A stretch of DNA of 64,000 bases from NCBI GenBank assembly GCA_964016885.1, contig OZ024740.1, forward strand, positions 344,906,001-344,970,000. The letters are read 5' to 3'. Position 1 is the first letter of the stretch, and every line of letters begins with the position of its first letter. This DNA comes from Eledone cirrhosa. Lineage: Eukaryota. The translations under genes were made by a program, and so were the position numbers. The notes beneath the pieces were generated by a model that saw only the letters and a list, made by a program, of their open reading frames with translations, ran no database searches and was not told where the DNA came from. This document shows positions 28,437-34,607 of the stretch, in pieces.

Positions 28437-28770
28437 TATTAACACTTAACATATTTAATATTCTACCATACTATTTCATTCTAATACCATTATGAATTTT
28501 AAAGGATTGTAAATAAAACGAGTAAATCAGACAAAGTTGGAATTCCTTTTATTAATATATATATATATATATTTATACATACATATATAAATATATATAT
28601 ATGTATATATATATATATATATATATATATATATATATATATATATATATATGTGTGTGTGTGTATGTATATATATATATATATATATATATATATATAT
28701 ATATATTATATATAATATTATAATGAAATGACAGGAGGTTGGATTTGTGTAAATCCTTGAAAGGTTTATT

Positions 28771-28828
28771 ATACTATGATCATTTCAATGACCGGGTTAC
28801 GTATGAATCCGGTGATATCATCAGATAT
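28771..28828 (-). ncRNA. Type I hammerhead ribozyme (left arm)
   Basis: atat-CTGATGA-long helix II (accgg..ccggt)-GAAA-tgatca-TA-gtat. Confidence 0.7.
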
Positions 28829-29237
28829 TCGAAATATAATACGTGAATGTAATAGATAAAATCCATGGGGCTGAAAAGCGAGGACCCGAGGGCGACCGCT
28901 ATTCTGTTCCTTCAACCTCAGCCGGTCGCCCTGGAGTGACGTGGTTAAAGCTTATAATATGCTACTACCGGTCAGATAAATGAAAACAGAAAGGGGTGGG
29001 AATATAAGTTAACGTCGATCTCATGACACAAAGTAAAAGAAAGAAAGAAAGGAAGGAGAGAGAAGAAGAGGGAAGAAAGAAGAAGAGAAGCCAGGGTTAA
29101 TGTCAGCTAAAAGAAGAAAGGCAACTACTACCGGTCAGATATAGGCAAGCAAGAGGGGGAAGGAAGATAAGTCTGCGGGAGGAAGACAGGAAGAGGGGAG
29201 AAGAGAAGGAAGAGAAGAGAGATCTAGAAAAGTAAGG

Positions 29238-30229
29238 GTTGATGGCTACAAGAAGGAAGATAGAAAGAAAGAGGAAGAAAGGTCGATATTAATGTCAGAC
29301 CACAGTCAAGCCAGGAGTGGCGCGACAAAATGTTCACAGGGACCCGCATCTTAGCAGAGGTGAATATATTGGGAGTCAGTGTGTTACAGTGTTTAGACTT
29401 CTAGGATGAAGTTAAAAAAATTAATAATCAATATTCAATATTAAAGAGGTTAGAAAATTTTAAGTTCAACAGTTTAACATTTTATTATATAATAGTTCCG
29501 ATTTGTTCTGTAATTTAAAGGTACTATGTGGCGGTTAAAACACCGGCCGCTCCCCGGGCCCCATGGCGAATTAAGCTACGCCGAGTATTTTAATTTACCG
29601 AAAGAAGGGGAAATTTATTTCTCCAAGCACTCTAGGTGAGCTCGTTCGCCAGGGAGCTGGTCGCGCCGCCATTAAAACCCACCCAACAGTCCGACAGAAT
29701 GTTGGAACTTTAAAATTTTGCTTAGAGAAGTAAAAGAGTAATGGTTGATAGCTACAAGAAGGAAGATAGAAAGAGAGAGGAAGGAAGGTCGATATTAATG
29801 TCACACCACAGTCGGGCCAGGAGTGGCGCGACAAAACTTTCACAGGGACCCGTATCTTAGCAGAGGTGAATATATTGGGGGTCAGTGTGTTACAATGTTT
29901 AGACTTATAGGATGAAGTTAAAAAATTAATAATCAATATTCCATATTAAAGAGGTTAGAAAATTTAAAGCTCAACAGTTTCAGGTTGATATATCTAATAG
30001 TTCCGATTTGTTCTGTAATTTAAATGTACTATTTGGCGGTTAAATCACCGGCCGCGCCCCGGGCCCTATGGCGAACTAAGCCACGCCGAGTATTTTCATT
30101 TACCGAAAGAAGGGGAAATTTATTTTCCCAAGCACTCCAGGTGAGCTCGTTCGCCAGGGAGCCGGTCGCGCCGCCGCTAAAGCCCACCCAACGGTCCGAC
30201 AGAAAGTTGGAACTTTAGAATTTTGCTTA
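29238..30229. repeat. Internal tandem duplication, period about 507 bp (mirrored in the right arm)
   Basis: gttgatggctacaagaagg at 29238 and gttgatagctacaagaagg at 29745; both units end in ttttgctta. Confidence 0.8.
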
Positions 30230-30479: not shown

Positions 30480-31180
30480 AGGAGGAGACATTCTAGTGTC
30501 GTGTGCTAATGGGTACAGGTCCCAATGTGATGCGTAGAAATACATGGATACATAGAAGTGGAATACGTGGAAGAGCACATTGGTATAGCAGAGGTATAAC
30601 TATGTAAACATATCAATATATAGGTATAAACATGTAAATAAACCAACAAGAGTGGTGTTGGAGTAAGATGGAGAAATCAAGACATAGGAGAATTACAATA
30701 TAGTTCAGGTTGCAGTATTTATGTTCCCGGGGGGGGGGGGCAATCCTGTGTCGTGTGCTAAGGGTGCACGCGAGTAAAAGTCCGAATAAGGGGGGTAAAA
30801 AGTACATGGATGTATAGAGGTAGAGTACGTGTAAAGGCATTAATACAGCAAACAAAGATGTGAAGATATAGATAAACAAACAATAGTCGTTGTCTAGTAA
30901 ATGTAGAGTTCAAGACACAGGAGAAATACAATATAGTTCAGGTTGCGGTATTTATGTTCCCAGGGGGAGATATTCCAGTGACGTGTGCTAAGGGTACACG
31001 CGAGTAAAAGTCCGAATAAGGGAAGTAGAAAGTACATGGATGTATAGAGGTAGAATACGTGGAGAAGCATTAATACAGCAAATAAAGATGTAAAGATATG
31101 AATAAACTAACAAGAGTCGTTGTCTATTAAATGGAGAGTTCAAGACACAGGAGAAATACAATATAGTTCAAGTTGCAGTC
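30480..31180. repeat. Tandem repeat, about 230-bp unit, about 3 copies (palindrome spacer)
   Basis: tcaagaca(c/t)aggaga..acaatatagttca recurring at ~30677, ~30910 and ~31140. Confidence 0.8.
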
Positions 31181-32753
31181 AGATTCTTCAGTTTTTTCAT
31201 AAAAGACTCTATTTAATTAAACCACGCAACCCAAAACCTCATAGAAGTTATTTGAATGTTTAATCTTCAATTTTCTGTTTGTTCAATTCTCAATCTTCTT
31301 ACTCCTTAGTTTTATAATGTTATTCTGAATTATTTCAACTTCATCCGATAGAGTTGAGCAAAATTCTAAAGTTCCAACTTTCTGTCGGACCGTTGGGTGG
31401 GCTTTAGCTGCGGCGCGACCGGCTCCCTGGCGAACGAGCTCACCTGGAGTGCTTTGAAAAATAAATTTCCCCTTCTTTCGGTAAATGAAAATACTCGGCG
31501 TGGCTTAGTTCGCCATAGGGCCCGGGGCGCGGCCGGTGTTTTAAGCGCCAAATGGTACCTTTAAATTACAGAACCTATCGGAACTATTAGATATATCAAC
31601 CTGAAACTGTTGAGCTTTAAATTTTCTAACATCTTTAATATGGAATATTGATTATTAATTTTTTAACTTCATCCTATAAGTCTAAACATTGTAACACACT
31701 GACCCCCAATATATTCAACTCTGCTAAGATGCGGGTCCCTGTGAAAGTTTTGTCGCGCCACTCCTGGCCCGACTGTGGTGTGACATTAATATCGACCTTC
31801 CTTCCTCTCTCTTTCTATCTTCCTTCTTGTAGCTTTCAACCATTACTCTTTTACTTCTCTAAGCAAAATTTTAAAGTTCCAACTTTCTGTCGGACTGTTG
31901 GGTGGATTTTAAAGGCGGCGCGACCAGCTCCCTGGCGAACGAGCTCACCTGGAGTGCTTGGAAAAATAAATTTCCCCTACTTTCGGTAAATTAAAATACT
32001 CGGCGTAGCTTAATTCGCCATGGGGTTCGGGGCGCGGCCGGTATTTTAACCGCCACATAGTACCTTTAAATTACAGAACAAATCGGAACTATTATATAAT
32101 AAAATGTTACACTGTTGAACTTAAAATTTTCTAACCTCTTTAATATTGAATATTGATTATTAATTTTTTTAACTTCATACTATAAGTCTAAACACTGTAA
32201 CACACTGACTCCCAATATATTCACCTCTGCTAAGATGCGGGTCCCTGTGACATTTTCACGCGCCACTCCTGGCTTGACTGTGGTCTGACATTAATATCGA
32301 CCTTTCTTCCTCTTTCTTTCTATCTTCCTTTTTGTAGCCATCAACCCTTACTTTTCTACTTCTCTCTTCTCTTCATTCTCTTCTCCCCTCTTCCTGTCTT
32401 CCTCCCGCAGACTTATCTTCCTTCCCCCTCTTGCTTGCCTATATCTGACCGGTAGTAGTTGCCTTTCTTCTTTTAGCTGACATTAACCCTGGCTTCTCTT
32501 CTTCTTTCTTCCCCCTTCTTCTCTCTCCTTCCTTTCTTTCTTTCTTTTACCTTGTGTCATGAGATCGACGTTAACTTATATTCCCATCCCTTTCTGTTTT
32601 CGTTTATCTGACCGGTAGTAGCATATTATAAACTTTAGCTACGTCACTCCAGGGCGACCGGCTGAGGTTGAAGGACAGAATAGCGGTCGCCCTCGGGTCC
32701 TCGATTTTCAGCCCCATGGATTTTATCTATTACATTCACGTATTATATTTCGA

Positions 32754-32811
32754 ATACCTGATGATATCACCGGATTCATACGGATCCCGGTCATTGAAAT
32801 GATCATAGTAT
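32754..32811 (+). ncRNA. Type I hammerhead ribozyme (right arm)
   Basis: atac-CTGATGA-t-atcaccggattc/atac/ggatcccggtcat-t-GAAA-tgatca-TA-gtat; palindromic helix III ATGATCAT; U.U at 10.1-11.1; AATAAA immediately downstream. Confidence 0.75.
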
Positions 32812-34607
32812 AATAAACCTTTCAAGGATTTACACAAATCCAGCCTCCTGTCATTTCATTACAATATTTAACTCCGTAATAGCACCACCAACTACAAAAA
32901 CAAAGACGGTTGAACTGCTTTACGTTGAGTACTCTCTATATTATTGCATTACGATTGACCATACGGAATAGACCAGCTCTATACAGTGGTGAACCTCAAA
33001 CCTGAATAAATATATTATATATATATATATATACATATATATATGTATGTATATATATATATATATATATATATATATATATATATATATATATATATAT
33101 ATATATATATTATATATATATATACATATATATATATACATACATACATATATATATATATATATATATACATACACAGTTCAAGAGAGAGATGGAGATA
33201 GTAGAGGAGATATGAGAGGAGAGATTGGAGAGTTAGTTAGAAGCCAAAGCGTAAAGGCATGTGCTCAATGTGCAACATGCAGTAGAAAGCAGCTAGGTAG
33301 CTGGGTTTATGCAGAAGTTAGGTGCGCAGAGCTGGAAATATTCATTAGTTAAGCAAAACAAGACCACAAACTTCACAAGGAAGACATTATTAAAAGATTG
33401 TCAACATATTTTATTTTGATGTAAAGAATGTAGAGAATAATAATAATGATTTGCTTAACTAATGAACATATACATACACACACACACACACACACATATA
33501 TATATATATATATATATATATATATATATATATATATATATATATATATTAGAAAGTAAGTTTTTTTTACAAAATGAAAAATAACAGAGGTGTCCTACAC
33601 GAGTGAAAGTATAAAGAAAAAGAGATGAAATCGAAAGTGCAACAGGAGTTTTATTTTTTTTTTAAATATATATATTTATTTGGTTCCTTTACCGGTTTAG
33701 CAGTTCTTCTGCTTTTTAAAAGGTGAGTTGAGATGGAGGGTCTGTGGTTTTTCTCACATCTGGTTGGTCTCTGAATGTTACTTGTTTTATATGGAAAAAG
33801 TGGCTCGAAATGCCAGATTTTTCGAGTAGTAATTTGATTGGTTTGTCAATAATTATAATAAATTTCGCGCCAGTTCGCGTGACAATAGTTCTTCAAATAA
33901 GAGGGGGGGGGTTGTCACAGGTTGTTTTTTCATATATGAGTGTTTGAATTTCTTTTTACTTGAAAAAAGGAGGCTCACGAAGGCTTTTTTTTGGTTGGTT
34001 ATAAATGAAATTATGGCTGTCACGTGAACAAGTTTTTATAAAATTTTTGTGCCCTTATTTGGAAATCCATTCTTTGATAAGTGAAAGATAATGGTCAAGA
34101 GAAAGGGATGGGAGAATTGTTCTGGTTCAGTGAATTTGGTTAGTTCGCTGGGGTGTCAGAATTCAGATTTTCTATTGAATAAAGAAAGTGAAGATATGTA
34201 TGTTTATTTGTGTGCTTGTGTGTGTGCGCGTGTGTGTGTGTGTGTGTTGTGTGTGTGTGTGTTTGAATTTCTTTACTTTAAAAAAAGGTGGCTCACGAAG
34301 GCTTTTTTTTTAATAAACGTGAAAAAAATCCTTCGTGGGCCACCTTTTATATATATATATATATATATATATATATATATATATATATATATATATATAT
34401 ATATATATATATATATACATATATATATATATATATATATATATATACATATATATATATATATATATTTATATATATATATATATATATATATATATAT
34501 ATATATATATATATATATATATATCAAAGGACTTGTGGTAAAGAACCAGATGGAACATAACGCACCAGAGTACTCAATACTTAGGGAAGTAGTAGAGTGG
34601 GAAATAG

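What the first reader, a model, noticed from the sequence alone, without database searches (positions are those of the whole stretch)
28714..33008. 4.2-kb palindromic insert with outward-facing hammerheads at both ends
Seen: 1.68-kb inverted arms, each ending in an HHR followed by AATAAA. Each arm has an internal 507-bp duplication, the spacer is made of 230-bp tandem repeats, and only the right arm has a ~140-bp extension. The paralogous site at 37435-37705 is empty. A GIY-YIG C-terminus-like relic lies at the inner end of the arms. Established: PLE insertions often have an inverted 5' pLTR and a 3' tail. Inference: this is a non-autonomous PLE derivative with very large pLTRs. Read-through from either strand would give a >1.6-kb dsRNA trimmed by a ribozyme, a potential ADAR or Dicer substrate.
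Basis: partly seen in the sequence, partly recalled or inferred. Interest (0 to 1): 0.75.

Follow-up and report, generated by a model that had tools for sequence, protein, structure and literature searches.

The report
Giant non-coding Penelope passenger palindrome
This 4.3-kb mirror-image insert is two back-to-back partial copies of an abundant 2.9-kb non-coding repeat that carries a hammerhead ribozyme motif and is likely pasted into TA repeats by a Penelope-type jumping-gene enzyme, a known layout at unusual size, and one sister copy elsewhere in the genome bears an A-to-G burst that likely records RNA editing before it was copied into DNA.

Summary
The palindrome is real, but it is not two giant pLTRs around a spacer. 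It is a reverse copy (28714-31184) joined head to head with a forward copy (31191-33011) of a young 2905-bp non-coding unit (1421 exact tail matches genome-wide). Copies end at two fixed points 141 bp apart, sit in (TA)n, and here have an 11-13-bp target duplication: the known Penelope-like (PLE) 'inverted copy plus tail' layout. The typical copy is about 0.5 kb; this one is an extreme. The arms share 6 private variants (control 0.02/kb), so both came from one template. The GIY-YIG relic is not supported. The likely mobiliser is a Hydra-type PLE: shared tail hairpin, shared ribozyme build, one chimeric insertion. Two additions: a conserved, covarying ~155-nt RNA domain inside each 507-bp repeat with no Rfam match, and 1 of 104 loci with 40 A-to-G changes on the ribozyme strand, a likely fossil of ADAR editing that points to a sense-strand template. 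Transcription of this locus is untested, and ribozyme trimming of the duplex is unlikely. New variant of a known kind.

The parts
28714..31184 (-). Left copy: unit positions 286-2762 of the 2905-bp family unit, ending at the inner (tail-less) end
   Evidence: 97.1% to a natural unit cut from L033
31191..33011 (+). Right copy: unit positions 1080-2905, ending at the tail end
   Evidence: 96.8% to the unit
31185..31190 (.). 6-bp insertion at the head-to-head junction; repeats six bases found just inside the right copy, like an end-joining scar
   Evidence: the repair reading is inference
28714..30393 (-). Left palindromic arm (overlap of the two copies)
31191..32870 (+). Right palindromic arm
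30394..31184 (-).
32754..32811 (+). Minimal type I hammerhead motif: 4-bp helix I, CUGAUGA, helix II with a C-C mismatch at the fourth position, GAAA, palindromic 6-nt helix III, predicted cut after 32807
   Evidence: own descriptor; same stems in 31 of 39 family copies; no Rfam hit; activity untested
28771..28828 (-). Mirror hammerhead motif; one helix I pair changed to G-U
32812..32817 (+). AATAAA directly after the right hammerhead (mirror at 28765-28770, minus)
   Evidence: sequence; use as a poly(A) signal untested
32871..33011 (+). 141-bp tail present on one side only; begins with an ACTC...GAGT hairpin (32871-32931) also found in Hydra-type coding families
32651..32693 (+). GC-rich hairpin where family copies are most often 5'-truncated (mirror at 28889-28932)
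   Evidence: 51 of 136 junction ends fall at unit 2500-2649; also the usual 5' edge in sister family B; a copying stall is inference
31357..32365 (+). Two 507-bp repeats (mirror 29218-30229)
31396..31550 (+). Conserved structured domain, first copy: long stem closed by a three-way junction with AATAAA in one loop (mirror about 30034-30188)
31901..32055 (+). Conserved structured domain, second copy (mirror about 29529-29683)
   Evidence: fold z -2.6, minus strand z -2.4; covariation; no Rfam family
28701..28713 (+). Target-site duplication, left copy (11-13 bp, visible through one interruption in the TA run)
33010..33022 (+). Target-site duplication, right copy (overlaps the element end by 2 bp)
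37434..37706 (.). Empty paralogous (TA)n site; a third paralogous run at 40841-41220 also lacks this element

Best explanation
The insert is two head-to-head partial copies of a young, high-copy 2905-bp non-coding unit, likely made in one retrotransposition event by a Hydra-type Penelope-like enzyme that would cut a (TA)n run and copy one sense-strand RNA from both ends of the break. Shown: the unit, its two fixed ends 141 bp apart, the TA target, the duplication, the shared private variants, the lack of coding relics. Inferred steps: (1) a tandem source locus gives an RNA that runs through the tail (tandems exist, transcription untested); (2) a Hydra-type RT/endonuclease binds it through the tail hairpin; (3) staggered cuts 11-13 bp apart give two primers; one starts at the tail end (unit 2905), the other at the inner site (unit about 2764); (4) the two cDNAs stop at different points, most often at the GC hairpin, here unusually late (286 and 1080); (5) host end-joining fuses their ends. 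The long palindrome is a by-product, not a designed dsRNA gene. Odds: non-autonomous PLE passenger 0.93; Hydra-type mobiliser 0.75; two-ended priming on one RNA or sister RNAs from one source 0.65.
For: Unit and map. Copy number: 714+707 exact matches to a 23-bp tail pattern, reversed control 0; top 40 hits 97-100%. Tail end followed by a TA run in 27 of 30 loci, (TG)n in 1, the next unit in 2, and by a TA run in 38 of 40 unselected loci. Inverted piece in 27 of those 40, 23 with the outer end at unit 2745-2770; two more have one at lower identity. 68 head-to-head junctions: 48 with apparent overlap, 8 blunt, 12 with inserts. Arms share 6 variants seen in no other sampled copy in 1677 bp, against 0.019 per kb for window-versus-other pairs; all inverted pairs 1.07 per kb versus 0.020 between loci; 42 of 51 arm differences are singletons. 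Duplications of similar length visible at L038, L040, L046 (read by eye). Hydra link: coding families with CxCX5C linker, DKT and RWR motifs and many open 758-aa frames (clade features from PMC8557442); the ACTC...GAGT tail hairpin in A, B, four coding families and two unassigned ones, no match in two Neptune-type controls or in the single examples printed for two further unassigned families; the same hammerhead build at the 3' end of a Hydra-type ORF (L340); tail alignment to P2 above 500 of 500 shuffles, three other PLE ends not; one chimeric insertion with a P2 tail at one end and this family's inner end at the other (L212/L283). Sense template: L143 has 40 A>G and 2 other changes in unit 1500-2100. 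Two RT start sites flanking the tail and cutting of both strands were shown in vitro for an anole PLE (PMC11167929).
Against: No coding element with a pLTR homologous to this unit was found: none in 59 of 60 GIY-YIG loci (the one hit is an adjacent insertion), none in 11, 30 and 10 further loci beyond independent insertions. A tail profile did not pick up P2 tails. The P1 tail, also Hydra-type, did not align better than shuffles. The chimera is a single case and could be two events with a deletion. Hydra assignment rests on motifs, not on a tree; Pfam saw only a weak GIY-YIG (E 0.026) in P2 and nothing in two others. The tail (141 bp) is far longer than the published 30-40 bp. Shared private variants fit fold-back copying as well as two-ended priming. 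The editing evidence is 1 of 104 loci; the family as a whole shows no A>G excess (1.76 versus 2.52 per 1000 for T>C in unique regions); 5 of the 40 changes sit at polymorphic sites.
Confidence: 0.75

Rival explanations
1. Retrozyme-like route: the unit RNA is cut by its hammerheads into monomers, closed into a 2.9-kb circle and copied round the circle, still by a PLE enzyme.
For: One hammerhead per unit; head-to-tail chains run across the unit border, up to 5.2 kb in L046; the motif is nearly invariant (31 of 39); circles are shown for small animal retrozymes (PMC7229834, passages).
Against: The window locus needs no circle; tandem genomic sources give multimers anyway; helix III is only a 6-nt palindrome and helix II opens with U-U, and minimal PLE motifs cut poorly (PMC4209133); ribozyme mutants did not impair insertion in vitro (PMC11167929); copy ends do not map to the predicted cut site.
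Confidence: 0.2
2. Self-priming or fold-back: one cDNA (or an antisense RNA template, as proposed for rotifer Penelopes) folds back and copies itself, making the inverted arm.
For: Arms share private variants; a small fold-back hairpin occurs at unit about 275 in L003; the proposal is in PMC3846280 (passages).
Against: The arms start at different unit positions (286 and 1080) with no palindrome at the junction; either arm can be the longer one and both outer ends sit at fixed sites; the A>G burst of L143 lies on the hammerhead strand, which an antisense template would show as T>C.
Confidence: 0.12
3. The palindrome is a selected hairpin-RNA locus that silences the family through ADAR or Dicer.
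For: 1.68-kb arms at 97%; one family RNA was very likely edited (L143); PLE small RNAs are reported in rotifers (PMC3846280).
Against: Length is the tail of a continuous distribution; arms drift independently; no host gene found nearby among 52 ORFs tested; the L143 burst spans only unit 1508-2092, with 0 of 176 A changed from 2100 on, and shares no private variants with the window arms.
Confidence: 0.06
4. Assembly or fold-back sequencing artefact.
For: The junction was not seen in four public runs.
Against: 51 differences between arms, a target duplication, an empty paralogous site and dozens of other loci with the same ends.
Confidence: 0.02

Closest known systems
Insertion units of endonuclease-bearing Penelope-like elements, Hydra clade (Craig et al. 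2021, PMC8557442, passages; Arkhipova et al. 2013, PMC3846280, passages)
   Same: 5' truncation, partial tandems, inverted 5'-truncated copy, one-sided tail, hammerhead near the 3' end, (TA)n target, target duplication of about 10 bp
   Different: No ORF or coding relic; tail 141 bp against 30-40 bp; 2.9-kb unit built from internal repeats; no homologous coding partner found
Animal non-LTR retrozymes (Cervera and de la Pena 2020, PMC7229834, passages; Li, Clavereau and Pollet 2026, bioRxiv 10.64898/2026.07.22.740005, parts 1-2 of 5)
   Same: Non-coding, non-autonomous, one type I hammerhead per unit, tandem copies, proposed PLE origin
   Different: Unit 2905 bp against about 300 (51-972 in a survey whose tandem search stopped at period 1000); mostly dispersed truncated palindromes rather than arrays; minimal rather than canonical ribozyme; circles untested
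Non-autonomous Chlamys PLEs such as MRC1 (PMC8557442, passage)
   Same: Non-coding passengers with pLTRs and head-to-tail copies
   Different: Those resemble their coding families at the 3' end and belong to a clade without canonical hammerheads; here only short structural signals are shared
Minimal hammerheads of metazoan PLEs (Cervera and de la Pena 2014, PMC4209133, Results and Discussion read)
   Same: Short helix I, long helix II, small palindromic helix III, pairs of motifs on opposite strands 100-700 bp apart
   Different: U at 11.1 and a C-C or C-U mismatch at the fourth helix II position, shared by many families in this genome; here the pair is 3.9 kb apart
L1 twin priming and ADAR-edited retrocopies (PMC11702581, passages)
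   Same: Second priming from the other DNA end, end-joined junction, 12-18-bp duplication; clustered editing carried into inserted DNA (3 of 235 pseudogene insertions)
   Different: L1 inversions overlap by 1-10 bp, here by 1.68 kb; the second start is a fixed site; the edited copy is a germ-line copy of the element itself

Membership tests
Penelope-like element insertion (non-autonomous) | Inverted 5'-truncated copy next to a direct copy | tested here: met
   Window; 27 of 40 unselected loci, 2 more at lower identity
Penelope-like element insertion (non-autonomous) | One-sided tail between two fixed 3' ends | tested here: met
   Ends at unit about 2764 and 2905; length 141 bp differs from the published 30-40
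Penelope-like element insertion (non-autonomous) | Partial head-to-tail tandems | tested here: met
   L033, L044, L046, L151, L276, L277
Penelope-like element insertion (non-autonomous) | Hammerhead motif near the 3' end | tested here: met
   Descriptor match; no Rfam hit
Penelope-like element insertion (non-autonomous) | Short target-site duplication | tested here: met
   11-13 bp by the microsatellite fingerprint
Penelope-like element (autonomous) | ORF with RT and GIY-YIG endonuclease, or a relic of it | tested here: not met
Penelope-like element insertion (non-autonomous) | Terminal sequence homologous to a coding family | tested here: inconclusive
   No BLAST homology; shared tail hairpin and weak tail alignment to P2; only a sample of coding families was seen
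Passenger of Hydra-clade PLEs | Insertion into (TA)n | tested here: met
   38 of 40
Passenger of Hydra-clade PLEs | Intact Hydra-type coding elements of similar age in the genome | tested here: met
   P2 copies 96-99% alike, many 758-aa open frames, CxCX5C and DKT motifs; by motif, no tree built
Passenger of Hydra-clade PLEs | Mobilisation in trans by that enzyme | not testable with these tools
   One chimeric insertion only
Non-LTR retrozyme | Short monomer (about 50-1000 bp) in tandem arrays | tested here: not met
   Unit 2905 bp; the longest chain seen is under two units
Non-LTR retrozyme | Self-cleavage and circular RNA | not testable with these tools
   No RNA run listed
MITE or foldback DNA transposon | Symmetric terminal inverted repeats around a constant body | tested here: not met
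   Ends differ by the tail, junctions vary freely, at least 10 of 40 copies have no inverted part

The most novel reading that the evidence does not exclude
The unit is a large structured non-coding RNA parasite of a telomerase-related reverse transcriptase: its conserved three-way-junction domain, kept in one to three copies across diverged sister families, is a dedicated binding module for the Hydra RT (a functional parallel to the protein-binding junction of telomerase RNA, recalled, no sequence likeness tested), a dimeric enzyme copies one such RNA from both ends of a break, and ADAR editing of that RNA is written back into the germ-line genome.
Probability: 0.15. Interest if true: 0.8.

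Novelty: new variant of a known kind. Interest (0 to 1): 0.5.

Why it matters
The layout is known, but how PLE inverted copies and tails arise is an open question (PMC8557442 says so). This family gives sequence-level handles: both arms descend from one template, the two start sites are fixed, and an edited copy shows which strand was the template. It also extends non-coding PLE passengers to three times the largest reported retrozyme unit, ties them to the Hydra clade, and flags an unclassified conserved RNA domain. Roughly two thirds of well over a thousand copies are palindromes, a ready source of double-stranded RNA wherever they are transcribed. Eight literature searches (open-licence library only) showed no paper on this family, on this domain, or on A-to-G scars in germ-line PLE copies; that is weak evidence of absence. 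Earlier AI notes on this genome already describe the two-end footprint and the tail hairpin, so those are not new to this scan.

Tried and rejected
Rfam: nothing on the insert, only sub-threshold microRNA look-alikes on microsatellites and hairpins in the window and in six sister loci. GIY-YIG relic rejected. Partner search: sister family B (81-89% over unit 2578-2905, 2384 candidates) has no linked ORF in 30 loci; GIY-YIG loci by protein and by Pfam family gave no pLTR homology; the BLAST table was cut in the middle, the visible other rows were TA-rich noise, and the later runs used a unit masked at that stretch. Reads: no RNA holder listed, which says nothing on expression. Laying six runs in all on the junction gave no spanning record; the contig runs hold about 1.4 billion letters for a 3-billion-base genome, the others are reduced-representation, and none is known to be the assembled individual, so this is no evidence either way. 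Tail covariation from families A and B alone was uninformative (1 of 63 pairs), and the tail and hammerhead folds were not better than shuffles. The internal domain folds better than shuffles in only part of the sample (mean z -1.9, reverse strand -1.35; 9 of 19 at about -2 or lower is not reached on every reading); the first pair count had the outer helix out of register and was redone; rows for that alignment were picked by hand, 19 rows from 31 clusters plus window copies, leaving out truncated ones. The structure was read from these same sequences, so the controls lean in its favour. No daughter or parent of the edited copy was found among the top 40 hits. Arm lengths above the window's (L042, L272) are formula artefacts, as the segment maps show; L046 and L151 are longer insertions overall. 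Look-ups of earlier findings by place and by sequence were empty. Supplements were not read; file S1 of PMC8557442 lists Hydra sequences that could settle the clade call. No absolute age was estimated.

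
Full report
What is there. The insert runs from 28714 to 33011 inside a TA microsatellite. Self-comparison gives arms at 28721-30393 and 31191-32861, 96.9% alike, each with a 507-bp duplication, and 230-bp repeats at 30627-31179. A descriptor for minimal hammerheads finds two motifs in the whole window, at 28824 (minus) and 32758 (plus), each followed by AATAAA. Rfam has no match. The paralogous run at 37434-37706 is empty. Both flanks are dispersed repeats on their own, but the interruptions in the microsatellite match left plus right halves of the filled site, and one interruption is duplicated: a target duplication of 11-13 bp. 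The GIY-YIG relic fails: 1 bit or less against 49.7 for a real element in the window.

The family. The right end has 2172 first-look candidates in the genome, the best 40 at 97-100%; a 23-bp tail pattern matches 1421 times, its reversed control never. Tandem loci define a 2905-bp unit. The window is unit 286-2762 on the minus strand joined head to head to unit 1080-2905 on the plus strand, so the 'spacer' is just the 5' part of the left copy. In 40 loci taken in genome order from the pattern hits, 38 tails run into TA, 27 have an inverted piece (two more at lower identity), 23 of these end at unit 2745-2770, the median length is 485 bp and the longest 2477 (four lengths are underestimates because they belong to a diverged subfamily). 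The window is thus an extreme, with the longest continuous arm among 68 junctions examined, though two sampled insertions are longer overall. This is the structure described for Penelope-like elements: inverted 5'-truncated copy, partial tandems, one-sided tail (PMC8557442 and PMC3846280, passages), and opposite-strand hammerhead pairs were noted before (PMC4209133, Results and Discussion). The tail here is 141 bp, not 30-40.

How it formed. The arms differ at 51 sites, 42 of them singletons, and share 6 variants found in no other sampled copy: 3.6 per kb against 0.019 per kb for window-versus-other pairs. Both arms therefore came from one source and have drifted since. Junctions mostly show short overlaps (48 of 68) and 51 of 136 ends fall at a GC hairpin. 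The window's junction holds a 6-bp insert copied from nearby. An anole PLE protein cuts both strands of AT-rich DNA and starts copying at two sites that bound the tail (PMC11167929, passages). I infer priming from both ends of one staggered cut, at unit 2905 and about 2764, with end-joining of the two cDNAs. Shared variants alone do not exclude fold-back; unequal arm starts and the lack of a junction palindrome argue against it.

Who moves it. No coding element with a homologous pLTR was found. Four lines point to the Hydra clade. The genome holds young coding families with the CxCX5C linker and DKT motif given for Hydra (PMC8557442), one of them (P2) with many open 758-aa frames. Their tails and this one begin with an ACTC...GAGT hairpin just after the inner end; two Neptune-type controls lack it, and the examples printed for two unassigned families did not match the pattern. 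The hammerhead build (C-C or C-U mismatch at helix II position four, U before GAAA, palindromic helix III) recurs behind a Hydra-type ORF. One insertion has a P2 tail at one end and this family's inner end at the other, with no P2 remainder beyond. Against: a tail profile missed P2, the P1 tail did not align above shuffles, the chimera is single, and no tree was built.

An editing fossil. Locus L143 (G000:C4, near 181.12 Mb) has 40 A>G changes among 131 A in unit 1500-2100 and 2 other changes; 35 are rare alleles, 5 sit at polymorphic sites. A followed by G is changed in 10 of 14 cases (Fisher p 0.001); the deficit after G (4 of 21) is not significant. The 3' G preference of ADAR is recalled knowledge. 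No other of 217 segments in 104 loci has more than 2 rare A>G in 150 bases; the next clusters of other types reach 5-7. The changes lie on the hammerhead strand, so that strand was likely the template, against the antisense-template proposal in PMC3846280, for this copy. The burst stops at 2092 and the copy shares no private variants with the window arms, so it does not show that this locus makes dsRNA. The family overall has no A>G excess. Edited retrocopies are known for L1 in cultured cells (PMC11702581, passages); PMC2873906 (passages) treats G-to-A DNA editing and RNA traces.

An unclassified RNA domain. Each 507-bp repeat holds a 155-nt GC-rich stem ending in a three-way junction. Its apex pattern matches 920 times, in this family and in sisters only 74-85% alike. 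In 19 hand-picked rows, 92% of cells pair and 6 of 28 pairs change on both sides, above 500 shuffles on two measures and at 14 and 19 of 500 on the others; the apex pairs hardly vary and so prove little, and single folds are mixed. Rfam has nothing. A binding site for the enzyme is my guess; a DNA-level promoter motif is not excluded.

The dsRNA claim. A transcript across the locus would fold into a 1.68-kb duplex; that follows from the sequence. Whether one exists is untested, and 52 ORFs from the window showed only retroelement domains and one weak unrelated hit. Only the distal hammerhead would be in sense, paired with its complement, so trimming is unlikely.

Verdict. A non-autonomous Penelope-like passenger, likely of Hydra-type elements, with a known insertion layout at unusual size. 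It works like a PLE insertion and passes the structural tests; it is not a retrozyme by unit size and not a foldback DNA transposon. Earlier AI notes call this genome a cephalopod and describe the same ends and tail hairpin in other families; I did not test the taxon, and those notes are not independent support. Interest 0.5.

Noticed in passing
window 38107-40836 (+): A different, 5'-truncated coding PLE (RT, GIY-YIG with in-frame stops, CX4CxxC linker, own small hammerhead near 40580) sits at the edge of the third paralogous TA run.
   Followed up: partly
window 28322-28546, 37203-37425, 37977-38098: The left flank is itself the 3' end of a Neptune-type PLE family with a very small hammerhead (matches L157, L160), so PLE ends are stacked in one microsatellite.
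   Followed up: partly
window 33181-36057, 37713-37981, 41227-44316: Local segmental duplication in two to three copies at 95-97%.
   Followed up: partly
window 34530-34820 and 42744-43028: Short palindromic ends of the Hydra-type coding family P1, with the same tail hairpin.
   Followed up: partly
window 36704-37140, 51045-51529, 58178-59610: Other near-perfect palindromes or inverted duplications (96-98%) of unrelated repeats.
   Followed up: no
L143:4868-7433 (G000:C4:181118500 onward): Family copy with an A-to-G burst over unit 1508-2092 and an 85-bp deletion inside it.
   Followed up: yes
L283:4702-7865 (G000:C1:58218500 onward): Chimeric insertion: inverted P2 tail end, P2 ORF fragment, then this family's unit 1829-2764.
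   Followed up: yes
L053-L082, L203-L232: Sister non-coding families (B and others, 74-89% over the 3' end) with the same ends, the same GC hairpin and one to three copies of the structured domain.
   Followed up: partly
many loci: A dozen or so hammerhead variants share a C-C or C-U mismatch at the fourth position of helix II, U before GAAA and a T-NNNN-A helix III; whether this variant is described was not established.
   Followed up: partly
window 31184; L275, L267, L032, L042, L143: Long copies often start at unit 271-294, which may be the 5' end of the RNA or a strong stop.
   Followed up: no
L269, L278, L281, L282: Copies on three contigs share rearranged internal junctions (unit 885/968, 788, 632), suggesting a rearranged source locus that was itself copied.
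   Followed up: no
L227: Mild T>C excess (10 of 26 rare changes), partly shared by both arms; not clustered enough to call editing.
   Followed up: no
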